A stretch of 64,000 bases of DNA from a virus (IMGVR_UViG_3300027754_000037), one strand, 5' to 3'. Numbered from the stretch's first letter, positions 1 to 56,397 are shown. Numbers and translations: made by a program. Notes: a model not told the origin generated them from the letters alone.

Positions 1-1487
1 AACATCCAACTGGTCTTTTTTCTATAAGCTCCGTAAATCGACTCCATGAAAGCCTCATCATCATCGTATTTTGTCCAACTTTTATCGGTTGGTGTTGTTT
101 CAGGCGGTTCAAAAGCAGGAGCTTTAGGAGGTGTTACACCTGTGACATATTGTCTAAATAGGGCTTTTTCATGATCGGATAATTTTATCCATGTATAGCT
201 TTTTCGGAGATCTATAAATTCTCCTAATTTACGAGGGTCTCTGAATTCTATTGTGCCATAGTTTATAGCCATACCATTTTCGGGTTCCTTACGAAGACTT
301 TCATAAATTTCCCTAAGTTTATCGTCTGTTATATCGGGTACTGGCTGTTTTCCACCTTCAGGTTGACCTTTGGGAGCCATTACACCTGTGACATATTGTC
401 TGAATAGTGCATGTTGATCAGAACTCAGATTGCCCCAGACATTTGCTTTGTTTTCATCGATGAACTTTTCGGCCTCTGGTGAAGTATCTTTGAGTACGAT
501 ATTTTTATTGTTATATGTTGGTTGTTGGCCTTGTCTTACTTTCTCCCAAATATTTGCGAGCTCTGTTTCTGAAATGCTTTCAGGCGCAATTTCTCCTCCG
601 GGTTGTTCTCCTCCGGGTTGTTCTGCGGGAGCTTGCTGTTGTTGTTGTTTAATGTTTTTAAGAGTAAATTTTATAAAATGTGCATATTTTGCGAAATCTC
701 GATGAGGTGCGCTGCCGGAAAATTGCAAAGTTTTTTCCATAGCATCGATTTTTGCGAGCACATTATCGATTGATTTGCGTGCATTTTCTTGGTCGATTTG
801 TGTGCCTTTTTCTTGCCAACCAGTATGAAAACCTTTATTGCCCATCCAACTCATAACTCCAGAGCCTAATTGGCGTGCGTAGTCCCACAATCCTTCGTTG
901 AGTTCTTTGCCTTGAAGATTTGCGATATAGAACTCATAAACTATTTCTGGGGACATGCCAAATCTTGTAATATCTTTGAGTGTTTGGCGAATTTCATTCT
1001 TGATTTTTGCTTTGCTTGATACCGATTCAGGTAGATATGGGTTATTATGGACGGTGTGATCCTTAACCTCTTCTTTCTCAGCGCCGAAAATTTTGAGACT
1101 GTTGATCAGTCCCATGATTGTATCGTTGAATCTGGGGTTATTGATTTGTTGTTGGAGTGTAGACGACCTTTGAAATCTTGCTGAAAAATCGCTGAGTGCA
1201 GATTGAAGTTCCGAGGATGCTTTTTGGACATTATTTTGGCCGAATCCGAATAACTCAGAGAAAACATCGTTGGGATTGATATTCTTTTGTACAAAATGGA
1301 GTTGATGTTGAAGCCACTTTTGTGCAGATTCTTGGAGTTCATTTCTTTGCTGATAGTGGATTCCATTTGAGAAGTACCATTCAACAAATTTTTTGGGGCT
1401 TACGCCAGCTTGCTCCATGAGATCAAGACAATTTTGCAAATTTTTTATATGGTTTGTAAAACGAAGACTTTCAGAAAATGTTTTCAT
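1..1487 (-). CDS. Hypothetical protein, probable internal head protein; 3' end truncated by the window edge (>=495 aa)
   Basis: Read manually (absent from the ORF track because it has no stop in the window): ATG at 1487 after GGTGAGGA SD, MKTFSESLRF..., open to position 1; internal repeat ALFRQYVTGV twice, 246 nt apart. Confidence 0.8.
   Translation of the reverse strand, partial: MKTFSESLRFTNHIKNLQNCLDLMEQAGVSPKKFVEWYFSNGIHYQQRNELQESAQKWLQHQLHFVQKNINPNDVFSELFGFGQNNVQKASSELQSALSDFSARFQRSSTLQQQINNPRFNDTIMGLINSLKIFGAEKEEVKDHTVHNNPYLPESVSSKAKIKNEIRQTLKDITRFGMSPEIVYEFYIANLQGKELNEGLWDYARQLGSGVMSWMGNKGFHTGWQEKGTQIDQENARKSIDNVLAKIDAMEKTLQFSGSAPHRDFAKYAHFIKFTLKNIKQQQQQAPAEQPGGEQPGGEIAPESISETELANIWEKVRQGQQPTYNNKNIVLKDTSPEAEKFIDENKANVWGNLSSDQHALFRQYVTGVMAPKGQPEGGKQPVPDITDDKLREIYESLRKEPENGMAINYGTIEFRDPRKLGEFIDLRKSYTWIKLSDHEKALFRQYVTGVTPPKAPAFEPPETTPTDKSWTKYDDDEAFMESIYGAYRKKTSWM
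134..401 (-). repeat. Intragenic ~82-aa domain duplication (22-nt identical core)
   Basis: ttacacctgtgacatattgtct at 134 and 380; encodes RQYVTGV in both copies. Confidence 0.75.
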
Positions 1488-1589
1488 GCTTCCTCACCTA
1501 GAACTGTCGTTATTTTATATATTTAGTGAGGCTTAAAATAAAACACCCGTTCTTTGGGAACGGGTATTTTATTTAATTTTGAATTAAAC

Positions 1590-1823
1590 TTAGACGATCC
1601 AGTTTCCACCAGCGCCATTGCTGTAGTCGGTGGGATCTTCAGGAGTGTCGGTGAAAGCCTCTCCGTCGAGCAGTTCGAGGACCTTACGGCCACCGTCAGA
1701 GTCAACGGTCTCGAGGTAAGCGGTGCGTTGAATGGAAACGCCACTCACGACTGCTGTGTCGAGAGAGCCTTCGCTGGCCAGATTGACCAAAGAAGGGGTG
1801 AGTTGAATAGTGTAACTTGCCAT
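1590..1823 (-). CDS. Small acidic hypothetical protein (possibly virion)
   Basis: 77 aa, SD AAAGGA, upstream CATATATA box at 1860-1867. Confidence 0.7.
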   Translation of the reverse strand: MASYTIQLTPSLVNLASEGSLDTAVVSGVSIQRTAYLETVDSDGGRKVLELLDGEAFTDTPEDPTDYSNGAGGNWIV

Positions 1824-1884
1824 GTTTGTGTTCCTTTTTGCAAAAAGATTTTAACAGATTATATATGCTTATTATCTCAAATTC

Positions 1885-2433
1885 TTAACTAAGGGGTTTC
1901 AGAGTAAAATTAAATTGTCTTTCACCCGGTTTTTTCGCACTTGCATTCGTATACAGGGTCACGCAGACATTCTTGCTTACCGGATCAAATGCCACTATTT
2001 TCCAATCTGGACTGGTTAGCAGCATCCTACGGGGCATGATTTCCTCGTAGTAAATCCAAGTCTTGTTATTTATGTACTTGTAGATATTATTATACATCAA
2101 ATACTTTGCTGTTGATGTATTTTTGATTAATTTTACGGTTTTAATGGAAACATTATTGACGATCATTTTAGTTTTATTGATATCAACGACTTCGCCTTGG
2201 TTTGTCAATTTGAAGGATGGCCTGAGGTATGAATCGGCGTAGCTCCATGCGTTAGAATCGACTTTTTCTTGTAAAACTTGATTATATGCTGCTGCTGCTA
2301 TGGGGCTTAGATCTATGATTTTTCCCGTGTTTACTACGATAGTTTTACTGCGATCTAGTTTGGAATCCAGCATGGCCAAAAGTGTTTCTTTGGCAAGTTT
2401 TTCGTAGGTTGTACAAGGTTGTTTGTAAATCAT
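1885..2433 (-). CDS. Hypothetical protein
   Basis: 182-aa ORF filling the gap between neighbours; no motif recognised. Confidence 0.7.
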   Translation of the reverse strand: MIYKQPCTTYEKLAKETLLAMLDSKLDRSKTIVVNTGKIIDLSPIAAAAYNQVLQEKVDSNAWSYADSYLRPSFKLTNQGEVVDINKTKMIVNNVSIKTVKLIKNTSTAKYLMYNNIYKYINNKTWIYYEEIMPRRMLLTSPDWKIVAFDPVSKNVCVTLYTNASAKKPGERQFNFTLKPLS

Positions 2434-2468
2434 AAGGTTTTTTCTCTACTACTACAGGTATTTAGGCT

Positions 2469-3484: not shown

Positions 3485-4045
3485 GTGTTAAGTTTTTTTC
3501 AAATGTGCGAAGTTTTAGAAAACTACATCGGCTACACAATTTACTGTGATTTAGATGGAGTATTGGTCGATCTAGAAAGAGGCGTAAGAGAAAATCTTGG
3601 CATGGGAAGTCCCATGAGTAGACTTGAGATGGTGAGATCTTTGGCGAGGATGAGGCGCAATAGTGATGAAGAGTTGGTGGAATTTTTCGCAAATTTGCCT
3701 TGGACTGAGGATGGGGAAAGATTATGGACATATCTAACGCCTTACGAGCCTTTGATTTTGACAGGCGGAGCGGAAGAAGCCAATGCGATTGGAGCAGGCA
3801 AAAACAGATGGGTACAGAGAAATCTTGGAATATCTGCAAGTAAAATTATTCACGAGAGTAACAAATCTAAGTTTGCGGGTCCAAATAAAATTATAATTGA
3901 TGATTATGACAAGAATGCCCGAGATTTCACTTCTGCTGGTGGCATAGGAATTTTACATACCAATACAGGTAACACGATTTCGCAGCTTAAAAACATTATT
4001 GTTGGTCAAATAAAGCCTAATCTTAGTGTGAGGGGGTTATCATGA
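3485..4045 (+). CDS. HAD-family 5'(3')-deoxyribonucleotidase-like protein
   Basis: IYCDLDGVLVD (DxDGV) and IIIDDY motifs; GTG start at 3485 follows GGAGGT by 7 nt. Confidence 0.8.
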   Translation: MLSFFQMCEVLENYIGYTIYCDLDGVLVDLERGVRENLGMGSPMSRLEMVRSLARMRRNSDEELVEFFANLPWTEDGERLWTYLTPYEPLILTGGAEEANAIGAGKNRWVQRNLGISASKIIHESNKSKFAGPNKIIIDDYDKNARDFTSAGGIGILHTNTGNTISQLKNIIVGQIKPNLSVRGLS

Positions 4046-4267: not shown

Positions 4268-4474
4268 ATGAGGTCTTTTAAAGAATATCTATCAGACAAG
4301 CTTTCACATGACCAGCCTCCTAGTGCTGGCGATTTGGGAGACAATCACTCCAATGCTGACAGGAATTTTGGTCGTAGTGGCGCTAAGTCGAAGAATGTGA
4401 TGTCCGGGGGGTCTAAGTCGATTAGTGATTTGAATCCAGATCGTTTATTTGGCAAAAAAAGGTTTAAAAAATGA
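4268..4474 (+). CDS. Small basic protein with capsid-targeting-like N-terminus
   Basis: MRSFKEYL; CATAGATA box 4 nt upstream. Confidence 0.7.
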   Translation: MRSFKEYLSDKLSHDQPPSAGDLGDNHSNADRNFGRSGAKSKNVMSGGSKSISDLNPDRLFGKKRFKK

Positions 4475-4776
4475 ATTTTCAAAGATTGTGGGAAAACATG
4501 AAGTTGGGGGAAGAGAAAAAGCAGTCTCCCGATGACAAGGCCATGTCTGCAATCAGAACTGGTTTGGGTTTGCGTGAAGACTTTTGGGATGATTTCAATC
4601 TGATTGTGAATAACGCAGAGGGGTTATCAGCCCTGTTGGACATACCTGTGGAGAAGATATCCACATGGCGCAGCAAAGTTGAAGAGGTTCTTGACAAGGT
4701 TCGTGAGGCAGATGGCCAAAGCGAAGTGGGCAAGAACAAGAAAATTGTTAAAACTGGAATATCGGTGGGAGAATAA
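4471..4776 (+). CDS. Hypothetical protein
   Basis: 101 aa, overlaps both neighbours (ATGA, TAATG). Confidence 0.75.
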   Translation: MNFQRLWENMKLGEEKKQSPDDKAMSAIRTGLGLREDFWDDFNLIVNNAEGLSALLDIPVEKISTWRSKVEEVLDKVREADGQSEVGKNKKIVKTGISVGE

Positions 4777-5159
4777 TGAAAAATTTCCTTGAATTTATGC
4801 AGATGAAAGAAGACGATAACCAATCCCAAATTGCACCGGGGGGTCAAACTCCCTTGGGTCACGCATCTGGCGCTGGAGCACTACCTCAGACTGCTCCCGG
4901 TTCTCAACACGAGGAAAAAATCATAGAGGAATTGGGCAATTCTTTGCGCCGTGTTCTGGAAGAGAAATTATTTCCAGCTTTGGAAAAAAGCCATTTAAGC
5001 AAGACTAGTGCCATGAAACTGCTGCAAACAATAGTGAGTGAGGTTGCCAACAAGTTTGGATTGAGCGCATCGGCAGTTCAACAGACAGGCAAGAATGCTA
5101 TGACTACGAATTCTGAGCCTCGGATGCCTGCTCCGAATCAACCAACGGCTGCTGGCTGA
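4776..5159 (+). CDS. Hypothetical protein with capsid-targeting-like N-terminus
   Basis: MKNFLEFMQMKE; P/G/Q-rich ends. Confidence 0.75.
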   Translation: MKNFLEFMQMKEDDNQSQIAPGGQTPLGHASGAGALPQTAPGSQHEEKIIEELGNSLRRVLEEKLFPALEKSHLSKTSAMKLLQTIVSEVANKFGLSASAVQQTGKNAMTTNSEPRMPAPNQPTAAG

Positions 5160-11322: not shown

Positions 11323-12420
11323 TTACCAGTCAGAACGAATAGCTTGAGTCAAATTGTTTACATCGACGGGTGTGAACAATCCATCGCTGTACTTGGTGTC
11401 TGCATTGCCAACCATGCTGTGGACGCTGTCCCACCAAGCTTGCTCTTCATTCTTGGATTCAGCCTTCTTGTGCTTCTTGCCCTTGTGCTTCTTGTTTCTC
11501 AGCATCGCAAAGTCGCCTGCGTCAATCTTGCCGTTTTTGTTCATATCCATTTTGCTTTGACCGCCCTTGAGCATCTTTTTCTTGCTCTTCTTTGCAAATT
11601 TAAGCTTGTTTTCATCCTCATCCTCATCCTCATCCTCATCCTCATCCTCATCCTCATCCTCATCCTCATCCTCATCCTCATCCTCATCCTCATCCTCATC
11701 CTCATCCTCATCCTCATCATCGTCTTGCTGATCATCATCATCGGACCAAGCTTCGGCCTTCATCTTCTTTGTGCCGTATTTCTTTGACTTCTTTTTGCTC
11801 ATCATTTTAGGAGATTCTTCATCATGATCTTCTTCATCATGATCTTCTTCATCATGATCTTCTTCATCATGATCTTCTTCATCGTGATCTTCTTCATCAT
11901 GGTCCTCGTGACCCTCTTCGTCATGATCTTCTTCGTCATGATCTTCTTCGTCATGATCTTCTTCGTCGTGAACTGGTTTACCGACACCCTTCATGCCTTT
12001 ATTTTGTTTTACACTATCCATGTCCTCATGTTCTTCATCATCATGATGATCTTCTTCTCCTTGTCCCATGTCCATCTTCTTCTTGGATTTCATGTGAGAT
12101 TTCTTGCTGGACATAGCACCGCACTTAGAGCACTTCTTTTTAGACATTGAGCCACACTTAGAGCAGACGCTGATGTCGCCATCATCGTCGTGGCCGACAA
12201 CATCGACATCTGCATCGTCAGAAGGTTTATCTTTGGCAGAGGAGGGCTTCACGATCTCTCCATCACCTGTAACCATCTTCTTTTTCTTCTTCTTTTCAGA
12301 CTTGACTTCTTCAAATCCATACTGAGATTGAATGCCAAGATTGCTGACCCTGCCCAATCCAAGGTTAAAGCTGGGAAGAATGGACTCATTCAAAGTCTTC
12401 CATTTTGTGTACGATAACAT
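11323..12420 (-). CDS. Low-complexity charged protein (K-rich, D/E-rich and His-rich blocks, EF-hand-like motif); probable head-core/internal protein
   Basis: SD GAGGA before ATG 12420; MLSYTKWKTLNE; CSKC x2; (DHDEE)n; (DE)n; DMNKNGKIDAGDF. Confidence 0.8.
   Translation of the reverse strand: MLSYTKWKTLNESILPSFNLGLGRVSNLGIQSQYGFEEVKSEKKKKKKMVTGDGEIVKPSSAKDKPSDDADVDVVGHDDDGDISVCSKCGSMSKKKCSKCGAMSSKKSHMKSKKKMDMGQGEEDHHDDEEHEDMDSVKQNKGMKGVGKPVHDEEDHDEEDHDEEDHDEEGHEDHDEEDHDEEDHDEEDHDEEDHDEEDHDEESPKMMSKKKSKKYGTKKMKAEAWSDDDDQQDDDEDEDEDEDEDEDEDEDEDEDEDEDEDEDEDEDEDENKLKFAKKSKKKMLKGGQSKMDMNKNGKIDAGDFAMLRNKKHKGKKHKKAESKNEEQAWWDSVHSMVGNADTKYSDGLFTPVDVNNLTQAIRSDW
11612..11713. repeat. Perfect hexanucleotide tandem repeat (TCATCC)x17 encoding a poly-(Asp-Glu) run
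   Basis: Counted directly from the sequence. Confidence 0.95.
11814..11968. repeat. 15-nt tandem repeat encoding (DHDEE)n, about 9-10 imperfect copies
   Basis: tcttcttcatcatga units seen directly. Confidence 0.9.
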
Positions 12421-16557: not shown

Positions 16558-16788
16558 ATGAAGACATTTGTGAAATGGGCTGAGAAAACCAAGAAAGAAC
16601 TTCCTGTATACACCCAAGAGGAATCTGGTGCAAGTCGTCGTGGTGGCATTGCTTACTGGGCATACCCCGATGCCTATATAAGGGCTCAATATCCTGATGC
16701 GCACTTCACCCCAATCGCTGCCGATGCCCTGTTCAAACTGGGTTATGCCAAGGGTGGACCCAAGGCTGGTAAGGAGAAAAACGGATAA
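16558..16788 (+). CDS. Small protein, paralog A of a tandem pair
   Basis: MKTFVKWAEKTKKELPVY...RGGIAYWAYPD; SD GAGGA. Confidence 0.85.
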   Translation: MKTFVKWAEKTKKELPVYTQEESGASRRGGIAYWAYPDAYIRAQYPDAHFTPIAADALFKLGYAKGGPKAGKEKNG

Positions 16789-17093
16789 TGCGTACTTTTG
16801 TTCAATGGGCTGGTAAGACTAAAAAAGAACTTCCGGTTTACTCCCAAAATGAAGGTGGAAGTACAGCGAGAGGCGGAATAGCACATTGGGCTTATCCAGA
16901 TGGATATGTTCGTAGTCACTATCCAGATGCTTATTTCATGTCTAGGGCTGCTGATGCCTTGTGGAAGATGTCCCCCGGACCTCCAATTACCCCACACAAG
17001 CACCATGTGAGCCACGAGACACCACCGGATTATGCGATTGGACTGGATGGCAAGCTCAGACCGGAAAAAGAAGTCGATTACGAGACAGACTGA
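16788..17093 (+). CDS. Small protein, paralog B of a tandem pair
   Basis: MRTFVQWAGKTKKELPVY...RGGIAHWAYPD; TAATG coupling. Confidence 0.85.
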   Translation: MRTFVQWAGKTKKELPVYSQNEGGSTARGGIAHWAYPDGYVRSHYPDAYFMSRAADALWKMSPGPPITPHKHHVSHETPPDYAIGLDGKLRPEKEVDYETD

Positions 17094-18541: not shown

Positions 18542-18977
18542 CAGTTCTTCTGACAATCCATTCTTTGAAAGACTCGTTTTTGTTAAATTTTTTTCTTATT
18601 TTTGATTTGAAGTGATCCCAAACTTCACGGAATTTTGGATGAAGAGCCAAATCATCGACACTATCAAGGTCACACCAACGAGCTTCGGTATGTTCTTTTG
18701 AAATTAATGCCTTAAATGGTTTTTCAATTGCGTGAAAATAAGTTCTGAACAACTTTTTGTCATCTTTGAAGTCAAAATAACCAAATGGAATTCCTATGCT
18801 ACAACCGCACTCCTCATCTGACTCCCTATGGGCAGCTTGTTCTAAACTTTCGCTCTTTTCTAATTTGCCACCGGGAATGGTCCATGTACCGGGATGACTG
18901 TCTTTTGTGTTTCTCTTCAGTAGCAAAATTTTTTTGCCGTCTGTGAAGAGTATACCGGCGCTTAATTTTTGTTTCAT
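18528..18977 (-). CDS. Nudix hydrolase
   Basis: Nudix box GGKLEKSESLEQAAHRESDEECG. Confidence 0.9.
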   Translation of the reverse strand: MKQKLSAGILFTDGKKILLLKRNTKDSHPGTWTIPGGKLEKSESLEQAAHRESDEECGCSIGIPFGYFDFKDDKKLFRTYFHAIEKPFKALISKEHTEARWCDLDSVDDLALHPKFREVWDHFKSKIRKKFNKNESFKEWIVRRTATLF

Positions 18978-19567
18978 CCTTTTGGTCCTCTTTTCAGAGG
19001 CACAGGTTTAAGTTTTTCTGTTTGACGGTCGGGCTGTCCCTTAAGGTGATGCATAGTGTTGATCAGTTCCTTGGCAACATCGGCAGCGGAATTGCCTGTG
19101 CATTTTGACGAACTTTGAATGGCAACCGTTTTTCTTTCCCTATTATAAAAACCCTTGCTGATTACAAAACATTTATGATCTGGGTGCCATGTGACTACCC
19201 CGGCCCACTCGCCATCATCCCAGTTTCTGGAAGAAATCAACAATCTCAATGGTTTTTCGGAAAAAACATGCTTGGTGTGATAGCCGTGATTTTTGAGTGC
19301 TGCGCTGATATATCCCAAACAAATTTTAGCGAAGCCTTCCAAGGCCTCATCTCCGTTTGTTCTGTAGTTTACCTCCACGCTATATCTTGATGTTTGAACA
19401 CTTTCAACAAGTTCAGAATTCTTGTATTCCTGCATGGTCTTCATATTGCCACGCAGAGTTGCTCCGAAGAATTCAAGGCAAACCCTCAACAAGCCTTCTT
19501 TGTCAACCGTTCTAGGTTGAAATCCATCAATTTTTTGTTGATCTCGCCATGTAGAAAAATTTTTCAT
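18974..19567 (-). CDS. Hypothetical protein with capsid-targeting-like N-terminus
   Basis: MKNFSTWRD; SD GGAG; ATGA overlap with the Nudix gene. Confidence 0.75.
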   Translation of the reverse strand: MKNFSTWRDQQKIDGFQPRTVDKEGLLRVCLEFFGATLRGNMKTMQEYKNSELVESVQTSRYSVEVNYRTNGDEALEGFAKICLGYISAALKNHGYHTKHVFSEKPLRLLISSRNWDDGEWAGVVTWHPDHKCFVISKGFYNRERKTVAIQSSSKCTGNSAADVAKELINTMHHLKGQPDRQTEKLKPVPLKRGPKG

Positions 19568-19593: not shown

Positions 19594-20358
19594 ATGATGT
19601 GGATCAAATTTAGCGAATGGGTTGAATTGCGTGAGAGCTACAACGCTCCGAGAAAGGGCATGAAGTCCCGTTGGAGCACATCTTATAAAAAGAGCATTAA
19701 TTGCGGCCATCCCAAAGGTTTTAGTCAAAAAAATTATTGCAAAAGAAAAGCCCGAGGTGGACAGTACACGGAGCAGTCAACTGTCGGTACTGAAGAGGTT
19801 GACTTCTCGCAAATAGAACAAAGATATTCCAAAACCAAGATTTCCGTCATGCTGGTTAGGCTTTACGACCAAATGACCAATCAAAAGCTTCTCACAAATA
19901 TATCAACCATTGCCAACTTAAGCGGAAGCGCCTATGGAGTTTATGTAAGTAGCGAAAATAAAAAGGCGATTGGTTCTGATATTGTCAATAAAATTAAATT
20001 AATTTATCCGAACGATCCTAGCTTGGGAGAAAAACTTCAAAAGTTGCCCAAAAAAGTTTTAATGCAGTATATGCCTCACTTGGATGACAAAAAAATTGTT
20101 CCTTCAGATGTAATCCATGTCGATGTGAACAGACATCTGAGTGATTTAGGAGATTCTCCAGCAGCTATTATTGAAATAGCCAGCACAATTGTACACGAGG
20201 CAACTCATGTGTTGGAATATGAAGCCACAGGACAAACCAAGGACGGCCCAAATACAGCCGTCGAGGTTGCAGAAAGAAAATTCAAGGCTTGGGTCCAACA
20301 GAACTGGAAAATGCTTCAGCAGAAGTTTGGATTCCAAGGTGAATATCCTTTTAGATAA
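19594..20358 (+). CDS. Putative zinc metallopeptidase with basic Cys-containing N-terminal module
   Basis: IVHEATHVLE (HExxH); N-terminal WSTSYKKSINCGHPKGFSQKNYC module. Confidence 0.6.
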   Translation: MMWIKFSEWVELRESYNAPRKGMKSRWSTSYKKSINCGHPKGFSQKNYCKRKARGGQYTEQSTVGTEEVDFSQIEQRYSKTKISVMLVRLYDQMTNQKLLTNISTIANLSGSAYGVYVSSENKKAIGSDIVNKIKLIYPNDPSLGEKLQKLPKKVLMQYMPHLDDKKIVPSDVIHVDVNRHLSDLGDSPAAIIEIASTIVHEATHVLEYEATGQTKDGPNTAVEVAERKFKAWVQQNWKMLQQKFGFQGEYPFR

Positions 20359-20369: not shown

Positions 20370-21077
20370 ATGGCTTTTGAATTCGTTGAATGGTTGGCAA
20401 AAAGAGATATTAGAGAAGATTTTGCAAGCAAATCTGGCGGTAAGAAAAATATTTGGATTACAATTGGTGCCGATGGCATAGAAAACGATCCTGTATTGGC
20501 CCAACAGCTTTTCCGATTGATTGATGACGCATATTCATCAATTGGAGGACATGTGGAATTCAGATCGCCGCAAGACATTGTAAATGCTTTTAAAAACCAA
20601 GATATTTCAGTAATTAAAGCAATTGATGTTGATGAAGATTCCGATCCTGACGCACTAAATGTTTACAAAAATAAAGCAGGAGGATTAAAAACAGTAGCTT
20701 CTGCTGCAAAAACAAAAAGCGATCAAGCTAAAAGTGCACTCACAACAGGCAAAAAAGCAGAATTGAATCTTCCGGGTTATTACGGCGAAGTTTCAGATAA
20801 AATTGCAAAAGTGCTTCTGGACATAGGTGTTCCTGTCGTTGAAGATGAGGCAACAGTCAGAAAAGTTTTGCAAAAAGATATCATTTGGTATGGAGAGAAT
20901 CCACAACTATCCTCTTTGCCTGAAAGAGTCCAACAAACCTTTGGAAAATACAAGGGTTGGTACGGAAGACAATTGAGAGATGGAAAGGCTCATGTAAAAA
21001 TAATGGTTGGAAAACCAATTGTTCCTCAACAAAAACAAGATTTGGCTACGCCTGTAAATAAAGAAATTATTCAGTAA
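20370..21077 (+). CDS. Hypothetical protein with capsid-targeting-like N-terminus
   Basis: MAFEFVEWLAKRDIRE; SD GCAGGT. Confidence 0.75.
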   Translation: MAFEFVEWLAKRDIREDFASKSGGKKNIWITIGADGIENDPVLAQQLFRLIDDAYSSIGGHVEFRSPQDIVNAFKNQDISVIKAIDVDEDSDPDALNVYKNKAGGLKTVASAAKTKSDQAKSALTTGKKAELNLPGYYGEVSDKIAKVLLDIGVPVVEDEATVRKVLQKDIIWYGENPQLSSLPERVQQTFGKYKGWYGRQLRDGKAHVKIMVGKPIVPQQKQDLATPVNKEIIQ

Positions 21078-34677: not shown

Positions 34678-34697
34678 ATTTCCGCCATAAATAAAAA

Positions 34698-34722: not shown

Positions 34723-34732
34723 TAGTGAATCT

Positions 34733-34761: not shown

Positions 34762-35306
34762 GGATCGCTAACTATATTATGTCTTTTGTAAAGATTTTTA
34801 GTTTTTATAGCTGGTAATTTTTGATCCATTTGTATTTGCACAAAGTCAAGATATTTTCTTTTTAATTCGTTATAATTGCGAGCAGTTCGATAAAGTTGTC
34901 TAAAATGGTTCAGAATACAAGTTGTCATATAATTGAAAGCTTTGCCTTTTTTAGGATCAAAGCGATCAATTTTTTCAAAGCAGATCATGACACCCTCTTG
35001 AATGGCATCGTCTTGATCAATTAAATTAAACTTAGCATATCGAACGATGTTTTGGGACAGGGTATAAAAAGCAAGCGCAAGCTCATCTTGAACCCCGTGA
35101 TAATTGCTAGATATGAGTCTAAAATCCTGTTCAACAACAATCCAAGCCGAGGGTTTTTGGTATTTTCCTCGTTTCATGGTCCTTTGCTGAGTTCCAATGA
35201 TATCATCCATGAGGAGTTGACATTTGATTCTTTCTTTCTTGGTTTTCTGGAATTTCACTATCAAAGCTTCAAATGTTCTGTTGTTTAAATATTCTGTCGC
35301 CATCAA
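34758..35306 (-). CDS. Late-transcription sigma factor, T4 gp55-like
   Basis: YLNN, DDAIQEGVMICFEKIDRFDPKKG-KAFNYMTTCILNHFRQ (sigma region 2). Confidence 0.85.
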   Translation of the reverse strand: MMATEYLNNRTFEALIVKFQKTKKERIKCQLLMDDIIGTQQRTMKRGKYQKPSAWIVVEQDFRLISSNYHGVQDELALAFYTLSQNIVRYAKFNLIDQDDAIQEGVMICFEKIDRFDPKKGKAFNYMTTCILNHFRQLYRTARNYNELKRKYLDFVQIQMDQKLPAIKTKNLYKRHNIVSDP

Positions 35307-35339
35307 ACTCCTTGGGGGTAACGGTATCAGCGAAACTAT

Positions 35340-35540
35340 ATGTATATCATGGAACTAATGCAAATTTTAGCAAACATTTTGGAAAAACCTGAAGTTCCTA
35401 GATTTTATCGTGAGCTACAATCATATTGCAACAATAACAATATGACAGAAGAATCTCAAGCTATAGCTTTCTTAATAGAGAAAAAATTCGAGAAAAAAAA
35501 TGAAGTCCCCGCTGACAATCAGCATATTGGTGAAAAATAA
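35340..35540 (+). CDS. Small hypothetical protein
   Basis: 66 aa overlapping the GT2 start. Confidence 0.55.
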   Translation: MYIMELMQILANILEKPEVPRFYRELQSYCNNNNMTEESQAIAFLIEKKFEKKNEVPADNQHIGEK

Positions 35541-36459
35541 CGCAGACACTATTCAAAGTTGTCTTGATTCTATAGCTTTTTTAAATTGCACAATTCAAAT
35601 AGGTGATTTAGGATGCACCGATGAAACAATCAACAAATCTCTGATTCACAAGCCAGAAATAATCAGACTATCCTGCAACGATGATCTTTCGGCAGCAAGA
35701 AATGAACTTATTTCCAGATGTAAAACTGAATGGCTTTTCATTCTGAATCCTTATGAAACGCTTTTATCGGGCGCTGATATTTTTTTGAATTGCATTTCTG
35801 GTCCATCAGAAATTTATAAAGTCTGCGTTTTGCAAAATGATTTGATCACCAAGGAAACCAGACTTTGGCATAAAAATAAAAACTTGCAATTCAAAAACCC
35901 CATATACGAAACAGTTGGCAGTAAAGGGAATCAAACACAAATTTTCTTGAATTCAGCAAATAAAAAAAACAAGATTGATGCTTTGCAAATTTGTAAAAAA
36001 TGGATGATCAAAAGCCCTATAAGTCCTGATCCTTTGTACTATATGGCCTGTGCCTGTCTGACAAAACAAAATTGGGACTCATTTTTGAATTATGCAGAAC
36101 AATATTTGCATCAAGAAACAAAAATGGAAATGTCTTTTTACATGACTCATTACTATTTGGCGTTGGTTAATTGCTATGTGAAAAAGGATTACACAAAAGC
36201 CTTGCAATCTGTTTTTTTATGTATTGCAAAAAAACCAATCATGGCAGAATTTTGGTGCCTTCTAGGAGATGTGTATTATGCTCTGAATGATTATGAAAAA
36301 GCTTTTCAATTTTTTCAAAATGGATTAATTATTGGGAAAAAAAGAAGAATGGATTGTGAGTGGTTTATGGAAATTTCAAAATACGAAGAGTATCCAAAAA
36401 AAATGATGGAGGCTTGCGCTTCCATCAAAAAACAAACATCTTTGTATGTGTCTCAGTAA
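35500..36459 (+). CDS. GT2-like glycosyltransferase domain + TPR, degenerate DxD
   Basis: ISILVKNNADTIQSCLDSI, DLGCTDET, DLSAARN, EWLFILNPYE (normally LDADE); C-terminal TPRs. Confidence 0.75.
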   Translation: MKSPLTISILVKNNADTIQSCLDSIAFLNCTIQIGDLGCTDETINKSLIHKPEIIRLSCNDDLSAARNELISRCKTEWLFILNPYETLLSGADIFLNCISGPSEIYKVCVLQNDLITKETRLWHKNKNLQFKNPIYETVGSKGNQTQIFLNSANKKNKIDALQICKKWMIKSPISPDPLYYMACACLTKQNWDSFLNYAEQYLHQETKMEMSFYMTHYYLALVNCYVKKDYTKALQSVFLCIAKKPIMAEFWCLLGDVYYALNDYEKAFQFFQNGLIIGKKRRMDCEWFMEISKYEEYPKKMMEACASIKKQTSLYVSQ

Positions 36460-36833
36460 ATAATATCCAATTCATTTACAATCACGGTGACCACATCTTC
36501 ATAACGAGACATTGCGATTTGTTTTCTTCCGGGTGCAAGCTTTCTGAGTTTTGCTTCTAATTCATCGATTTTGCAATTGATTACTGTCCAGTTGTTGTCT
36601 GCTAATTTTTTGATTTCTTCATCAAGTTGAGATACGGGCCTGCCGGGATAATACTGTTGGATTTGCTGTTTCGCCTCGTTCATGACCTTCTTGTAGATGG
36701 GCATATTGCAGGCACAGCCCGGATTGTTCAAAAATTTATTGATATCCTCTTTGAAATTTTCAGGCAAACTGTCCCTGAATCTTTTATCTCTCAGAGCTTG
36801 TTTCACATCCATCAAGGTAATGGGTCTACTCAT
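36453..36833 (-). CDS. Hypothetical protein
   Basis: 126 aa with NPGCACN. Confidence 0.7.
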   Translation of the reverse strand: MSRPITLMDVKQALRDKRFRDSLPENFKEDINKFLNNPGCACNMPIYKKVMNEAKQQIQQYYPGRPVSQLDEEIKKLADNNWTVINCKIDELEAKLRKLAPGRKQIAMSRYEDVVTVIVNELDIIY

Positions 36834-37086
36834 TTGTCTCCTCTACTCTTTGATCTGGATCAAAGGCACGAACCATATAACCACACTTGGGGCATTTGAA
36901 ATACTTTTGTCTTTTTAAATCTGGTGGAACTACTGCTTTATTGGTCAATGGATCAAACTTTGGAGAGGCACGGGGAATATCGCTCCTTTTTACTGGAACC
37001 AAGTCACCCAAGTCATATCCGTCAGTAAATCGTTTGTAATCGCATTGATTACAATGCATTACAAAAATCTTTTTGTCAGGATTCAT
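36826..37086 (-). CDS. Zinc-ribbon protein
   Basis: CNQC...CPKCG; likely start at ATG 37086. Confidence 0.65.
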   Translation of the reverse strand: MNPDKKIFVMHCNQCDYKRFTDGYDLGDLVPVKRSDIPRASPKFDPLTNKAVVPPDLKRQKYFKCPKCGYMVRAFDPDQRVEETNE

Positions 37087-37453
37087 TGGTTTGATTTTGA
37101 TTTTGATTGCTGGGGGTGGTATCCATCGGGAAATTAAGCACAGTTTGCGCCTCAATCCAATTCAAGACAACAGCAGCAAAGTTTGCGATAAATCCTCCTG
37201 CACATCCACAAGCGAAAATCTCAAATGGGTTTTGACTCAACCAAACCCATCCCATGAAAAAACCGCACCAAGTGCCAGAACACATATAACAGTCTACAAC
37301 ACCTCCCAATTTAGGCACCTTGACTGCCGTGGCGCATCTTTTCACCAAGTCTCGAAACCATTGAAGAATAGTTCCATCAACAACGATATGGCTCATGCCA
37401 ACTGTGCTCAACACATACAACAAAAATGCAACTACCATAACGATCATCTCCAA
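37076..37453 (-). CDS. Membrane protein, DUF1360-like
   Basis: Hydrophobic segments flanking CYMCSGTW. Confidence 0.6.
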   Translation of the reverse strand: MEMIVMVVAFLLYVLSTVGMSHIVVDGTILQWFRDLVKRCATAVKVPKLGGVVDCYMCSGTWCGFFMGWVWLSQNPFEIFACGCAGGFIANFAAVVLNWIEAQTVLNFPMDTTPSNQNQNQTNES

Positions 37454-37803
37454 AAGGTTACTTTTATTTCTTCGCCTTTTCTATAAAGGCAGAAGTCTTT
37501 ATACTCTGAAAATTCGCAAAGCCGCTCTTCATCAGTCTCATTAAAATCATAATGATCAACAAGTTTGTGATTCAACTTGTTTATTTCAATATCTTCTTTC
37601 AAAAAATTACGAATTCTATCGATATGTTCTGATTGCAGGATGTTTAGTAGGTCTGCGATGCTTTTTTTCCCAAGCATTTGCAGACCGGGAATCCTATAGG
37701 ACATTTCCCATTGGTCAAAAATATATTTTAATTCCGGCAGCAATGCACGGATTTCTTTGTTCATAAAAATTTTTTGTTCAATATTTTTTAGATTTATTTC
37801 CAT
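37444..37803 (-). CDS. Hypothetical protein
   Basis: 119 aa, overlaps the next gene. Confidence 0.7.
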   Translation of the reverse strand: MEINLKNIEQKIFMNKEIRALLPELKYIFDQWEMSYRIPGLQMLGKKSIADLLNILQSEHIDRIRNFLKEDIEINKLNHKLVDHYDFNETDEERLCEFSEYKDFCLYRKGEEIKVTFWR

Positions 37804-37871
37804 GATACTATGAATAATTTAACCGCAGAAGGACACTTAGAATTAAGTGAGTATCCCAAGGAGATAAAAAA

Positions 37872-38957
37872 ATGGCAGATGACACTTTTCGCCCACGCAA
37901 GTTTGAAGAAACGACCCCCAACGATCCAGTCGATATGGCACAGCAGATGCGTCAACAGGTCAATCCTGAAGCAGCCTCTGAAAATCCTGTTCAAGGCGCA
38001 TTCAATATTCAAGGAAATGTTCCGCCAGCTTTTCAGGCAGCTTTAAGCGCAGCCAGAGGCGATTCGCCAAAAGAGCCCAAGCGTGGTTTTGGAAAAATGA
38101 GCACAGGCGGTGAGAGTCCAGTTGCCGCCAAACTTCAAAACTCTGGTTTGTCTGCTACTAGCCATCTTCAGGAACTTCTTCAAGGCCTGCGTGAAAACAA
38201 AACCATCTACGAAGAACTCGAATTGCCTTCTAAGGGCAAGTTCTACAATGGCGAAGACGGCCCTTTAAATGGCGTTATCTCCATTCGTGCTATGACCGGT
38301 GAGGAAGAGCAAATTCTTGCTACTCCCCGATTCGTCCGCAAGGGCCAAGCAATCAACATGATTTTTCAAAAGTGCATCAAGGAGAGTTTCCGACCAGAGA
38401 ACCTCTTGACGATTGATAGAACCTATCTCCTTATTTACCTGCGTGGTATTTCCTACAGCCCAGAATATGAAGTTGAAATTAAGTGCCCCGAGTGCGAAAA
38501 GAAGTTCAGTACCACAATTGACTTGAATAGCCTTTATGTTGAGTCTTGTCCCAGCGAATATGGACCCAATCTTCAAGATGTACTCCCCAACAGCAAGCTT
38601 CCTTTTACCTACAGATTATCAACAGGCAAAGATGAGCAAGACATTCAGGAACACAGGGATCGTCGCCTCAAGGCTTTCGGTGATGCTAGCGCTGATGATA
38701 CTTTGATTTACAGAACTGCACAGCTATTGCTTGACATCGATGGAATTACGGACAAGCAAGAACTTCAAGTCCTCCTCAAAAACCTTCCAATCAATGATGT
38801 CGCCTACATTAGAAGTTTGGTAAATGAACCTCCATTTGGTGTTGATACCAGCATTGAAATGGTTTGTGGCAGTTGCCTTCAAGAGTTTGATATCGACTTA
38901 CCCCTTGAAGCAAATTTTTTCTTCCCCCGGCGCAAGAAGGTGAAGACCCAAGTCTAG
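37872..38957 (+). CDS. Baseplate hub / tail assembly chaperone, T4 gp26-like
   Basis: ELPSKGKFY, IRAMTGEEEQIL, DRTYLLIYLRGISY, CPEC...CGSC, ends ANFFFP; SD AGGAG. Confidence 0.85.
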   Translation: MADDTFRPRKFEETTPNDPVDMAQQMRQQVNPEAASENPVQGAFNIQGNVPPAFQAALSAARGDSPKEPKRGFGKMSTGGESPVAAKLQNSGLSATSHLQELLQGLRENKTIYEELELPSKGKFYNGEDGPLNGVISIRAMTGEEEQILATPRFVRKGQAINMIFQKCIKESFRPENLLTIDRTYLLIYLRGISYSPEYEVEIKCPECEKKFSTTIDLNSLYVESCPSEYGPNLQDVLPNSKLPFTYRLSTGKDEQDIQEHRDRRLKAFGDASADDTLIYRTAQLLLDIDGITDKQELQVLLKNLPINDVAYIRSLVNEPPFGVDTSIEMVCGSCLQEFDIDLPLEANFFFPRRKKVKTQV

Positions 38958-46059: not shown

Positions 46060-46067
46060 TATTTATA
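46060..46067 (-). promoter_or_regulatory. T4-type late promoter box TATAAATA
   Basis: Exact T4 late consensus, 4 nt before ATG 46055. Confidence 0.65.
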
Positions 46068-54904: not shown

Positions 54905-54984
54905 GATTTTCTCCTTGGAAACAAGTTACACATATTTTTTGAACAAATCAAGGCAAATCACACATCTTACTCATAAATAATGTC

Positions 54985-55365
54985 ATGAGAAGTTTTAGGA
55001 CATTTTTGGACAATAAAATAATTACCGAGGCTGATGGTCCCGGAGCTCCTCCCGGTGGTCCTCCCGGTGGCGCTCCCGGTGGTCCTCCCGGTGGCCCTCC
55101 ACCCATGCCGATGCCGGGAGGTGGTGGTGGTCCCCCCGGTGGAGGATTGGGTGGAGGTCTTGGTGGCGGTCTAGGAGGCATGGGAAGTCCTCCTCCCGGT
55201 GGTGGAGGAGCGCCAGCACAAGCTAAAAAGCTCAAAGCCTACAATGTTTGGGATGCAATTGAAAAAGTAGTGGACCAAGATGCCTCTGCTGATAAAAAGA
55301 AAGATAACGAAGAAAAGCCCGAGAAGCCCGAGGCGAAGCAGCCAGAGAAGGCTCCTACTCCTTAA
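54985..55365 (+). CDS. Gly/Pro-rich low-complexity protein with capsid-targeting-like N-terminus
   Basis: MRSFRTFLDNKIITE; (PPGG)n; CATAAATA 5 nt upstream. Confidence 0.75.
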   Translation: MRSFRTFLDNKIITEADGPGAPPGGPPGGAPGGPPGGPPPMPMPGGGGGPPGGGLGGGLGGGLGGMGSPPPGGGGAPAQAKKLKAYNVWDAIEKVVDQDASADKKKDNEEKPEKPEAKQPEKAPTP

Positions 55366-55374
55366 CGGTGCGAC

Positions 55375-55833
55375 ATGAAAGAGAAAACTGCTGTCTTAAC
55401 AGCAGAGCAAATTGAATTTGCCTGCAAACAATTCATTACATATTTGAAAATATGTAATGAAAACAACACCTCTGCATCAGAAAGCAGCGTTGAAGATTCA
55501 TCGCTTTTAAGAAGATTGTTGTTGGGTAAAAAAGCACATGACAATCCTCCACCTCTCAGATTCAAATATCCAGCTTGGGAACTTGTTGAGGATGATGAAA
55601 TCGAAATTCATCATTTCACAGAGGACGAAAAGGGTATAGCTATCGATCAACACGGAGGTTACTCTTGGGCTGACAAAGATAAAAAAATCTTGGAATATAA
55701 GCGTTTAGGTCTTGTGTTTGAGTTGATCGAAAAAGAAGTTGCACCAGAAGCCGAATGTGTTGCAGAGGGAGTTGATCCCAACGAACACAAATATTTTGCA
55801 AAGTTTTTAAAAAGGCTTGTCGTGTATAAATAA
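55375..55833 (+). CDS. Hypothetical protein
   Basis: 152-aa ORF in the + strand run. Confidence 0.7.
   Translation: MKEKTAVLTAEQIEFACKQFITYLKICNENNTSASESSVEDSSLLRRLLLGKKAHDNPPPLRFKYPAWELVEDDEIEIHHFTEDEKGIAIDQHGGYSWADKDKKILEYKRLGLVFELIEKEVAPEAECVAEGVDPNEHKYFAKFLKRLVVYK
55825..55832 (+). promoter_or_regulatory. T4-type late promoter box TATAAATA
   Basis: Exact consensus, 4 nt before ATG 55837. Confidence 0.6.
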
Positions 55834-55836
55834 TAC

Positions 55837-56397
55837 ATGGAAGATTTTAGTGAATGGCTAAGAATTCGTGAAGCTTTTGGTCCATACATCGGACCATGTG
55901 TTGATACTCCCAATTATCAAGTTTGGGGCGCTTGCAGCGATCAAAATACGGATGCAAAAAACAAAAAAATTAGACAAGGAAATGTTGGACACAAGAAATC
56001 AAAATCGGCAAGGCCCTTCAAAGAACAACAGATGCAAATGACGCAACCAGTCATAGCTGATAAGGTTCCACAAAAAGAAAAATGGAGCGCATCTAAGGAT
56101 GATATTTTATCGATGTGGAAAACTCTTCCTCCCAATAATCCGATTGTAGCAAAACCCATCGGCTACGAACATCGTGGCTCAACATATGGTGAAGATGGAA
56201 TAAGAATTACAGGAAGTCCACAATTCATTTCAACTGTTATATCACATCTCAAAGATTTTATGGCTTATGAAACACCGCAAACTAAATTGGCTATTTCTTA
56301 CAGAGAGACAGAATCTCCTAGCAAATTAGCAACGGTTCAAAACAAAAAATCTTTTGTTTTCTACATCGCAGTAAAAGAGCGTGGTGGTCAAGCTTAA
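55837..56397 (+). CDS. Hypothetical protein with capsid-targeting-like N-terminus
   Basis: MEDFSEWLRIRE. Confidence 0.75.
   Translation: MEDFSEWLRIREAFGPYIGPCVDTPNYQVWGACSDQNTDAKNKKIRQGNVGHKKSKSARPFKEQQMQMTQPVIADKVPQKEKWSASKDDILSMWKTLPPNNPIVAKPIGYEHRGSTYGEDGIRITGSPQFISTVISHLKDFMAYETPQTKLAISYRETESPSKLATVQNKKSFVFYIAVKERGGQA

What the first reader, a model, noticed from the sequence alone, without database searches (positions are those of the whole stretch)
1..56397. About 17 unrelated proteins share a T4 capsid-targeting-like N-terminus: a large injected payload that includes enzymes
Seen: N-termini MKTFSESL (1487-), MLSFFQMCEVLE (3485), MRSFKEYL (4268), MNFQRLWE (4471), MKNFLEFM (4776), MLSYTKWKTLNE (12420-), MKTFVKWAE (16558), MRTFVQWAG (16788), MKNFSTWRD (19567-), MMWIKFSEWVELRE (19594), MAFEFVEWLAKRDIRE (20370), MYQSFKEFL (22106), MSDLSFREWLYAEE (26184), MKTFYEFL (28116), MRFKEFLLNE (46055-), MRSFRTFLDNKIITE (54985), MEDFSEWLRIRE (55837): consensus M-x(1-4)-F-x-E-[FWY]-L, often followed by [IL]-x-E. 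Established: T4 internal proteins carry a ~10-aa capsid-targeting sequence (MKTYQEFIAE type) removed by gp21, which cuts after [IL]-x-E. Inference: these proteins are packaged and ejected with the DNA; the set includes a HAD nucleotidase, an HExxH protein and a sigma-like protein, i.e. a pre-formed host-takeover toolkit.
Basis: partly seen in the sequence, partly recalled or inferred. Interest (0 to 1): 0.72.

Follow-up and report, generated by a model that had tools for sequence, protein, structure and literature searches.

The report
T4-style head-loading tags on many genes
About fourteen unrelated proteins of this uncultured 239-kb T4-related lake phage start with nearly the same short peptide that phage T4 uses to load proteins into its head, so the phage probably packs a large, fast-evolving set of proteins, enzymes included, alongside its DNA. 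Nobody has tested this experimentally.

Summary
All 17 N-termini exist at the stated coordinates: 11 fit a strict tag, 3 a looser one and 3 are weak. One weak case, the HAD nucleotidase, is rescued by its family.

**Enrichment.** The core F-x-[EQKDT]-[FWY] starts at residue 3, 4 or 5 about 10-16 times more often than at internal positions. This holds in the window and in the 595-kb relative LR756511. Synonymous codons are unbiased, so selection acts on the peptide.

**Conservation.** Orthologs keep the tag while linkers and bodies diverge. In two large metagenomic families (949 and 357 clusters) the tag's aromatic residues are about as conserved as catalytic residues.

**Match to T4.** The tag matches T4 IPI (M-K-T-F-K-E-F) and IPII/III. 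Its conserved positions 4 and 7 are the ones shown in T4 to drive head targeting. The phage's own contig encodes a gp21-type prohead protease, a scaffold-like protein and a gp23 capsid protein 16-20 kb upstream of the window.

**New here.** 41% of tagged genes, against 3.6% of other genes, have a T4-late-promoter-like box 4-5 nt before the ATG. That spacing implies leaderless late mRNAs.

**Cargo.** It includes a HAD 5'-nucleotidase and a probable zincin peptidase. No tagged sigma-like protein was found in the window.

Packaging, cleavage and ejection remain inferred. The scan had already noted the same tag in other windows of this genome.

The parts
3..1487 (-). 498-aa protein (runs off the window start); weak tag M-K-T-F-S-E-S-L with only the first aromatic residue
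   Evidence: full length seen in L022/L026; no Pfam or PHROG hit
3485..4045 (+). HAD 5'(3')-deoxyribonucleotidase with a roughly 16-residue N-terminal add-on: variant tag, then V-L-E at residues 10-12; catalytic D-x-D-G at residue 22
   Evidence: phrog_2643 2.5e-23, match starts at residue 17. Homologs come with canonical tags, variant tags or no extension
4268..4474 (+). 68-aa basic protein (pI 10) with strict tag; TAGATA box 4 nt before the ATG
4471..4776 (+). 101-aa protein, weak tag (F3, W7); the LR756511 ortholog has the same form
4776..5159 (+). 127-aa protein, strict tag followed by M-K-E and a Pro/Gly/Gln-rich linker
11323..12420 (-). 365-aa very acidic protein (pI 4.5, Asp/Glu/His repeats) with Y4/W7 tag and L-N-E at residues 10-12. 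It has the second-highest coding score among my 81 called genes. The positional counterpart in the syntenic LR756511 stretch keeps the tag.
16558..16788 (+). 76-aa basic protein, strict tag; paralog of the next gene
16788..17093 (+). 101-aa protein, strict tag; paralog of the previous gene
18974..19567 (-). 197-aa protein of a 949-cluster family. Layout: tag helix (residues 4-10), variable linker, alpha+beta domain of unknown fold
   Evidence: W7 invariant in 120 of 120 homologs, F4 in 83%
19594..20358 (+). 254-aa protein. Layout: tag, about 50-residue basic module, probable zincin metallopeptidase domain (HExxH at residues 201-205)
   Evidence: the basic module also occurs behind a tag in cyanophage Bellamy gene 122
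20370..21077 (+). 235-aa protein, strict tag with I-R-E at residues 14-16
22106..24706 (+). 866-aa basic protein, strict tag. The syntenic 1040-aa LR756511 gene is also tagged but is no longer alignable by BLAST
   Evidence: no Atlas hit
26184..27563 (+). 459-aa basic protein, strict tag; no counterpart in LR756511 (insertion)
28116..28541 (+). 141-aa basic, low-complexity protein starting M-K-T-F-Y-E-F-L; no counterpart in LR756511
45471..46055 (-). 194-aa protein, strict tag ending L-N-E at residues 8-10; TATAAATA box ends 4 nt before the ATG
54985..55365 (+). 126-aa Pro/Gly-rich protein, tag with I-T-E at residues 13-15; ATAAATA box 5 nt before the ATG. The positional counterpart in L027 is also tagged
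55837..56397 (+). 186-aa basic protein, strict tag with I-R-E at residues 10-12; TATAAATA box 4 nt before the ATG
46060..46067 (-). Example of the late-promoter-like box (TATAAATA) placed so that transcription would begin at or next to the A of the ATG
   Evidence: T4 geometry from PMC1524935
34758..35303 (-). gp55-like late sigma factor (untagged); the likely reader of the box
   Evidence: Sigma70_r2 30.8 bits; phrog_234 late sigma 4.8e-9
21138..38957 (.). T4-type neck, tail and baseplate module in which several tagged genes sit. It holds the Ad2 adaptor, sheath stabilizer, sheath, two tube proteins and a baseplate protein

Best explanation
The shared N-terminus is a T4-type capsid-targeting propeptide.

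**Proposed mechanism.**
- A short amphipathic helix, M-[KLR]-[TNS]-F-x-[EQD]-[WFY]-[LIV], presents two aromatic side chains at positions 4 and 7.
- During prohead assembly this helix docks the protein onto the gp22-like scaffolding core.
- The cargo is thereby enclosed by the gp23-type shell.
- The gp21-type prohead protease then cuts after a hydrophobic-x-Glu site where one follows the tag, which frees the cargo inside the head.
- The cargo leaves with the DNA at infection.

In this clade of uncultured jumbo and huge T4-related phages the label has spread to dozens of unrelated, fast-evolving genes. They include small basic or low-complexity proteins, a very acidic protein, large proteins of unknown function, and enzymes (HAD nucleotidase, a probable zincin peptidase and, in the relative, RNA-end-repair-type enzymes and a PRTase).

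Many of these genes are driven by a gp55-type late promoter placed so that the mRNA starts at the AUG.

**Shown:** the tag, its position, its conservation, its independence from the cargo, its likeness to the T4 tag, the head genes, and the promoter-like box.

**Inferred:** binding to the core, cleavage, packaging, ejection and leaderless transcription.
For: 1. **Position-specific enrichment** in the window, in LR756511 and in flanking DNA of the same contig.
2. **Match to the T4 tag.** The T4 control run with the same script gives IPI = M-K-T-F-K-E-F..., IPII/III = M-K-T-Y-Q-E-F-I-A-E, and gp61.1. Window tags such as M-K-T-F-Y-E-F-L and M-R-F-K-E-F-L are near-identical.
3. **Determinant positions.** In T4 IPIII, targeting depends on residues 4 and 7 and processing on residues 8 and 10 (PMC9026906). 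Here residues 4 and 7 are the conserved aromatics and residue 8 is mostly Leu.
4. **Purifying selection on the peptide.** W7 is invariant in 120 of 120 homologs and F4 is present in 83% in the 18974 family, with positions 3, 5 and 9 free. In the HExxH family the tag Phe is invariant alongside the HExxH residues. Synonymous codon use equals that of other N-termini.
5. **The tag is a movable add-on.**
   - It stays at the extreme N-terminus across different linker lengths and a 50-residue insertion.
   - HAD homologs exist with canonical tags, with variant tags, or starting 4-8 residues before the catalytic Asp.
   - 23 of 25 HAD extensions contain hydrophobic-x-Glu.
6. **Head machinery on the same contig**: gp23 capsid protein (PF07068), a 299-aa scaffold-like protein with 12 [LI]-x-E sites, and a gp21-type protease (PF03420) with the GELxHP and SSRG motifs. 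Tagged genes lie next to the capsid gene on this contig and in LR756511.
7. **Capsid protein cleavage site.** The T4 gp23 cleavage site aligns with M-N-E or F-N-E in these capsid proteins (the T4 site itself is from my own knowledge).
8. **Late-promoter-like box.** The box lies 4-5 nt before the ATG in 24 of 58 tagged genes against 39 of 1096 others (odds ratio 19, p about 2e-17). A gp55-like sigma is present.
9. **Cargo character.** It resembles known head-internal proteins: small, basic or low-complexity, highly variable between relatives.
Against: - There are no virion data. No cultured relative is close enough: the capsid protein's next best match is 34% identical.
- A T4-type cleavage site right after the tag is present in only about a third of tagged proteins. 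It is absent from the well-conserved 18974 family.
- The commonest residue after W-L is Glu, which would put Trp rather than Leu or Ile at P3.
- T4 ip genes do not share the leaderless promoter arrangement, so that part has no precedent.
- Some tagged proteins, such as the very acidic 365-aa one, could be core or scaffold components that are degraded rather than ejected.
Confidence: 0.7

Rival explanations
1. The peptide is a real N-terminal address or interaction tag but for another destination. Candidates are another virion compartment (neck, tail or baseplate), a late-infection assembly factory, a chaperone, or regulated proteolysis. On this reading the proteins are not head cargo.
For: Several tagged genes sit inside the neck and tail module. 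Cleavage sites are not universal. The docking test gave no verdict, so it says nothing either way.
Against: The tag coincides with the T4 head-targeting sequence at its experimentally defined determinant positions. The T4-type head system is on the same contig, and tagged genes flank the capsid gene. No known tail or chaperone signal has this form (own knowledge).
Confidence: 0.15
2. The motif is a by-product of a nucleic-acid signal. On this reading the first codons form part of a late promoter, an initial transcribed region or a leaderless-translation element, and the peptide itself has no function.
For: 41% of tagged genes have a promoter-like box 4-5 nt before the ATG, so promoter and first codons are physically adjacent.
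Against: Synonymous codon choice within tags matches other N-termini: Phe is TTT 60% / TTC 40%, and Leu is spread over six codons. More than half of the tagged genes have ordinary Shine-Dalgarno leaders and no box. The Phe position varies between residues 3 and 6. Trp and Phe are conserved at protein level across families at 60% identity, while neighbouring residues vary freely.
Confidence: 0.03
3. The shared N-termini are relics of recombination or duplication: a mobile 5' cassette (promoter plus first codons) was copied in front of many genes, with no present function for the peptide.
For: The box and tag often travel together. Genes such as 26184 and 28116 are insertions relative to LR756511. 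16558 and 16788 are tandem paralogs.
Against: At the DNA level the tags are not copies of each other; their codons differ. Positions 4 and 7 stay fixed over deep divergence while positions 3, 5 and 9 drift, which indicates ongoing selection. The same tag form occurs in T4 and in cyanophage Bellamy.
Confidence: 0.07

Closest known systems
Capsid targeting sequence (CTS) of phage T4 internal proteins IPI, IPII and IPIII (Mullaney and Black 1996; reviewed in PMC9026906 and PMC3012670)
   Same: It is an N-terminal peptide of about 10 residues directly after Met. It has aromatic residues at positions 4 and 7, an aliphatic residue at 8 and often Glu at 9-12. It is attached to otherwise unrelated, fast-evolving proteins. 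The phage has gp21-type protease, gp22-like scaffold and gp23-type capsid genes.
   Different: - Scale: about 14-17 of about 81 genes in this window, and about 50 genes in the 595-kb relative, against 3-5 genes in T4.
- Cargo includes recognisable enzymes and proteins of up to 866-1076 aa.
- Trp is preferred at position 7.
- A cleavage site is often missing or shifted.
- Many of the genes have a late-promoter-like box at leaderless distance, which the T4 ip genes lack.
- Nothing has been tested experimentally.
T4 Alt (packaged ADP-ribosyltransferase) and other head-packaged enzymes
   Same: It is the precedent for a large enzyme that is packed in a T4 head, processed by gp21 and injected.
   Different: The Alt N-terminus (M-E-L-I-T-E-L-F) is not the IP-type tag. 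Here, enzymes carry the IP-type tag itself.
Propeptide-targeted ejection and inner-body proteins of phiKZ-like giant phages such as SPN3US (PMC5694885, PMC7411985, PMC10052503)
   Same: These are large heads carrying many packaged, protease-processed proteins that enter the host.
   Different: They belong to a different phage lineage. Their protease cuts after [AGS]-x-E (own knowledge). No short shared N-terminal consensus of this kind is described for them.
N-terminal packaging signal of phage P1 DarB (PMC9024508)
   Same: An N-terminal stretch is sufficient to send a large anti-restriction protein, or a reporter, into the capsid.
   Different: The Dar proteins share no consensus. P1 has no separate T4-type scaffold.

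Membership tests
T4-type capsid targeting sequence (IP-type CTS) | Lies at the extreme N-terminus, within about 10 residues after the initiator Met | tested here: met
   The core starts at residue 3, 4 or 5 in 53 of 1154 proteins, against 0.15% per internal position. It stays N-terminal despite insertions behind it.
T4-type capsid targeting sequence (IP-type CTS) | Aromatic residues at positions 4 and 7, the targeting determinants in IPIII | tested here: met
   Consensus. T4 sequences. Determinant positions from PMC9026906. W7 invariant and F4 at 83% in one family. The tag Phe is invariant in a second family.
T4-type capsid targeting sequence (IP-type CTS) | Processing site: aliphatic residue at 8 and Glu at 10, i.e. 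a gp21 site [LI]-x-E just after the tag | tested here: inconclusive
   Leu is commonest at position 8 and Glu is enriched at +5 and +8 from the Phe. [LIVM]-x-E follows in 31% of tagged proteins against 14% and 10% in the two controls. It is present in 23 of 25 HAD extensions and absent from the 18974 family.
T4-type capsid targeting sequence (IP-type CTS) | The phage encodes the T4-type prohead system: gp21 protease, gp22-like scaffold, gp23 capsid protein | tested here: met
   Same contig, 16-20 kb before the window: PF07068, PF03420 and a 299-aa coiled-coil protein rich in [LI]-x-E. The same holds in LR756511.
T4-type capsid targeting sequence (IP-type CTS) | Carried by cargo proteins that are unrelated to each other | tested here: met
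   All-against-all BLAST beyond residue 16 finds only one paralog pair.
T4-type capsid targeting sequence (IP-type CTS) | Tagged proteins are physically in the head and the tag is removed by the prohead protease | not testable with these tools
   The phage is uncultured and there is no virion proteome. This needs mass spectrometry or a reporter assay.
T4-type capsid targeting sequence (IP-type CTS) | The tag alone is sufficient to encapsidate a foreign protein | not testable with these tools
   Needs a fusion experiment.
T4-type late promoter (gp55-dependent) | TATAAATA-like box at -13 to -6 from the transcription start; first T poorly conserved in relatives | tested here: inconclusive
   The box [AC][AC]-T-A-[ATG]-A-T-A peaks with a 4-5 nt spacer to the ATG. 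The T4 geometry is from PMC1524935. The strict 8-mer is rare: 2 of 11 tagged genes in the window and 0 of 47 in LR756511. No transcription start data exist.
T4-type late promoter (gp55-dependent) | The phage encodes a gp55-like late sigma | tested here: met
   Window 34758-35303: Sigma70_r2 and phrog_234 late sigma.
HAD 5'(3')-deoxyribonucleotidase (PF06941 / phrog_2643), for gene 3485-4045 | Profile match and the catalytic D-x-D-G-[VT] motif | tested here: met
   phrog_2643 2.5e-23. D-L-D-G-V at residue 22. Homologs carry PF06941. There are 3685 representatives at E<=0.001. Pfam itself gave no hit at E<=0.01.
Zincin metallopeptidase, for gene 19594-20358 | HExxH zinc-binding motif conserved across the family | tested here: met
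   HExxH is present in all 120 listed homologs. H201, E202 and H205 are invariant and E208 nearly so.
Zincin metallopeptidase, for gene 19594-20358 | Zincin fold | tested here: inconclusive
   The model has pLDDT 81.5. Top VIA matches are nearly all zincins (Wss1 Z 6.7, YbeY 6.7, deuterolysin 6.3, AsaP1 5.8, NleC 4.9), but all have Z<8. Foldseek found nothing at E<=0.001.

The most novel reading that the evidence does not exclude
The tag, often together with a leaderless late promoter, works as a portable cassette that turns any gene into head cargo. If so, the ejected proteome of a whole uncultured clade of jumbo and huge T4-related phages can be read directly from sequence. That proteome would be a large first-minute toolkit: nucleotidase, zincin protease, RNA-end-repair enzymes, PRTase and dozens of unknown proteins. 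Its members would act before any phage gene is transcribed.
Probability: 0.35. Interest if true: 0.8.

Novelty: new variant of a known kind. Interest (0 to 1): 0.64.

Why it matters
If the tag works as it does in T4, it gives a simple sequence marker for virion-packaged, host-injected proteins in phages that cannot be cultured. Such proteins are prime candidates for counter-defence and host-takeover functions.

It would also show that large T4-related phages use their bigger heads to carry a far larger and more enzymatic protein payload than T4 does. In addition, it offers natural tag variants for protein-delivery vectors built on T4-type capsids.

The coupling to a promoter at leaderless distance, if confirmed, would be a new piece of late-gene regulation in this group.

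Tried and rejected
- **Docking test.** Complex prediction with the tag (residues 1-40 of the 18974 family alignment) against the contig's scaffold-like protein gave no verdict (score 0.00). It is not evidence either way.
- **RNA runs.** No RNA holder was listed for window 45001-55000, so the leaderless start could not be checked.
- **Strict promoter 8-mer.** TATAAATA within 60 nt upstream was found for 2 of 11 tagged window genes and 0 of 47 in LR756511. I replaced it with the relaxed box at fixed distance.
- **Family scans of the 17 proteins.** Pfam on all 17 gave only a sub-threshold zinc-ribbon hit. PHROGs named only the HAD enzyme. No sigma-like member was found.
- **Fold searches for the 18974 model.** No match in PDB or BFVD at E<=0.001.
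- **ESM Atlas.** Only sub-0.9 leads to zincin effector families for 19594, and nothing usable for 22106.
- **Finding the genome.** No whole genome is held. An exact 40-mer was not found in viral contigs. The JGI contig is not searchable by handle, so I reached the head module by walking with the look-up of encoding contigs.
- **Cultured relatives.** None carries the 18974 or HExxH families, so no virion proteome could be used.
- **Untagged HExxH homologs.** I checked whether they sit in a non-T4 phage. The one examined (L027) is another tagged relative, so the test was uninformative.

Full report
**What the window is.**
- The window carries a T4-type neck, tail and baseplate module: Ad2 adaptor, sheath stabilizer, sheath, two tube proteins and a T4 baseplate protein.
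- It also carries a gp55-like late sigma, SbcCD-like nuclease subunits, ribonucleotide reductase by likeness to a related contig, and a probable CTP synthase by its N-terminal motif only.
- It matches JGI contig Ga0114969_10000002 of 239,391 bp.
- The only DNA-level relative among deposited phages is the uncultured 595-kb phage LR756511, which is syntenic with the window.
- The capsid protein of the window's contig is 81% identical to that of LR756511. It is at most 34% identical to any cultured phage.

**The observation.**
- All 17 N-termini are present.
- I made a crude gene call that knows nothing of the motif (81 genes).
  - On it, F-x-E-[FWY]-L lies in the first ten residues of 6 genes and in none of 1759 internal windows.
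  - The looser F-x-[EKQT]-[FWY] lies there in 13 genes, against 0.85% of internal windows.
- I rebuilt LR756511 from 13 fetched pieces and found the same pattern: 43 of 1073 genes against 0.63% internally.
- Over both genomes the core begins at residue 3, 4 or 5 in 13, 29 and 11 proteins. Any deeper position holds it in about 0.15% of proteins.
- The consensus is M-[KL]-[TNS]-F-[KR]-E-W-L-E-x-[KR]-E.
- Beyond residue 16 only 16558 and 16788 are related to each other.

**Peptide or nucleic acid?** Synonymous codon choice inside the tags equals that of other N-termini. For example Phe is TTT 60% and TTC 40%, and Leu is spread over all six codons. Selection is therefore on the amino acids.

**Conservation.**
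- Orthologs in LR756511 keep the tag although linkers differ in length and the bodies are 40-62% identical.
- The syntenic partners 22106 (866 aa) and LR 469121 (1040 aa) no longer align, yet both are tagged.
- The 18974 protein belongs to a family of 949 clusters. Among 120 members W7 is invariant, F4 is present in 83% (otherwise Leu or Tyr), and positions 3, 5 and 9 vary freely.
- The HExxH protein 19594 belongs to a family of 357 clusters. Nearly all listed members start with the tag, and the tag Phe is invariant together with H201, E202 and H205.
- In the window's copy, a basic module of about 50 residues is inserted between tag and body. The tag still sits at the very N-terminus.
- In AlphaFold models the tag is a short helix set apart from the folded domain.

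**Likeness to T4.**
- Running the same scan on T4 returns IPI, IPII, IPIII and gp61.1, together with six other N-termini that fit the pattern only loosely.
- IPI begins M-K-T-F-K-E-F. That is the same heptad as several tags here.
- The review PMC9026906 reports that in IPIII targeting depends mainly on residues 4 and 7, and processing on residues 8 and 10. Those positions are the conserved ones here.

**Head machinery.**
- Walking from the window along its own contig reached the head module 16-20 kb before the window start. It holds a gp23-type capsid protein (PF07068), a 299-aa coiled-coil scaffold-like protein with 12 [LI]-x-E sites, a gp21-type protease (PF03420) and a portal-sized gene.
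- The protease aligns with T4 gp21 across the GELxHP and SSRG motifs.
- Three genes with tags or near-tags, each with the promoter-like box, lie beside the capsid gene.
- LR756511 has the same module. Its scaffold-like protein has 3.5 times the genome's density of [LI]-x-E.
- The T4 gp23 maturation site, placed from my own knowledge after the L-T-E at residue 65, aligns with M-N-E or F-N-E in these capsid proteins. A hydrophobic-x-Glu specificity is therefore plausible.

**Cleavage.**
- [LIVM]-x-E follows the tag within nine residues in 31% of tagged proteins. The figure is 14% for other N-termini (p=0.002) and 10% after internal copies of the core (p=0.0002).
- So processing right after the tag is likely for some cargo and not for all.
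- In T4, targeting and processing are separable.

**The enzyme cases.**
- Gene 3485 is a HAD 5'(3')-deoxyribonucleotidase (phrog_2643, 2.5e-23). The profile match starts at residue 17.
- Among its homologs, 17 start 4-8 residues before the catalytic Asp.
- Another 25 have an extension of 12 or more residues. Of these, 18 carry an aromatic pair near the N-terminus and 23 a hydrophobic-x-Glu.
- In the exhaustive search the family has 3685 representatives. Fourteen of 76 short members carry canonical tags directly before the catalytic motif. Some have the form M-K-S-F-K-H-F-L-A-E, very close to T4 IPIII.
- This is the clearest evidence that the tag is an add-on propeptide. It also rescues the weak tag of 3485.
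- Gene 19594 has an invariant HExxH motif, and the best structural matches of its model are almost all zincins, though all have Z below 8. I call it a probable zincin peptidase.
- Its basic module also occurs, behind a tag, as the 51-aa gene 122 of the cultured cyanophage Bellamy.
- Among 44 tagged LR756511 proteins, Pfam finds the following; the rest have no match:
  - a PolyA_pol head domain;
  - HAD_SAK_1;
  - a tRNA-ligase phosphodiesterase domain;
  - a PRTase;
  - one HTH/Sigma70_r4_2 protein.
- No tagged window protein is sigma-like.

**A new association.**
- A box T-A-[AGT]-A-T-A starts 9-13 nt before the ATG, peaking at 10-11 nt, in 24 of 58 tagged genes and 39 of 1096 others (odds ratio 19, p about 2e-17).
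- Several of the 'others' have loose tags.
- The box is usually preceded by A or C and is separated from the ATG by 4-5 nt.
- T4 late promoters are TATAAATA at -13 to -6, with the first T poorly conserved in relatives (PMC1524935).
- With that geometry, transcription would begin at or next to the A of the ATG, giving leaderless late mRNAs.
- Window examples are 4268, 46055(-), 54985 and 55837.
- The T4 ip genes have ordinary leaders instead.
- No RNA data could be found, so this remains a prediction.

**Verdict.**
- The reading as a T4-type head-targeting propeptide is the best explanation (about 0.7).
- That the cargo is ejected into the host follows only by analogy with T4.
- The principle has been known since 1996, and CTS-like tags on varied internal proteins of T-even phages are described.
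- I found no paper in the held library linking this tag to jumbo or huge T4-related phages.
- What differs from T4 is the scale, the enzymatic cargo, the breadth across uncultured phages and the promoter coupling.
- Earlier notes of this scan report the same tag in other windows of this genome. I used them only as leads.

Noticed in passing
window 4258-4263, 19584-19589, 46060-46067, 54974-54979, 55827-55832; also before 13777(-) and 25620(-): A late-promoter-like box sits 4-5 nt before the ATG with no Shine-Dalgarno, implying leaderless mRNAs. It is strongly linked to tagged genes (odds ratio 19 over the window plus LR756511).
   Followed up: partly
window 61996-64000 (+): A long ORF of collagen-like G-x-Q-G triplet repeats runs off the window end. 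It has the highest coding score in the window. All three forward frames and two reverse frames are open there.
   Followed up: no
window 11323-12420 (-): The tagged protein has long Asp/Glu/His repeats (D-H-D-E-E type) after a Lys-rich stretch and two C-x-x-C pairs. It may be a metal-binding or scaffold-like head-internal protein.
   Followed up: no
window 13366-13605 (-) and 13619-13777 (-): Two small Cys/Gly-rich proteins lie side by side. The second has the promoter-like box at leaderless distance but no tag.
   Followed up: no
window 48319-49965 (-) versus LR756511 444162-448055: The ribonucleotide reductase large subunit is 548 aa here. In LR756511 it is 1297 aa, and the alignment covers only the last 300 residues, which suggests intein-like insertions in the relative.
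   Followed up: no
LR756511 242621-242989 (L016): There is a second, weaker Peptidase_S77 match (34.8 bits) far from the head module of the 595-kb relative.
   Followed up: no
L028 5989-6144 (Synechococcus phage Bellamy gene 122): A 51-aa basic protein of a cultured T4-like cyanophage starts M-K-S-F-K-Q-F. It is homologous to the basic insert of window gene 19594 and lies between the tail-fibre and terminase genes.
   Followed up: partly
L026 17302-18204 (+): A 300-aa gene on the opposite strand is inserted between the scaffold-like and protease genes of the head module. A LAGLIDADG endonuclease gene lies at L026 5339-5911.
   Followed up: no
window versus JGI contig Ga0114969_10000002: Gene positions imply an offset of about 856 bp between the window and the last 64 kb of the 239,391-bp contig. 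The window may therefore come from a near-identical assembly, or the contig may be circularly permuted.
   Followed up: no
window 40023-43051 (+): An AAA (MoxR/dynein-like) ATPase is followed by a 435-aa protein matching an HNH-endonuclease PHROG. The pair is conserved in LR756511.
   Followed up: no
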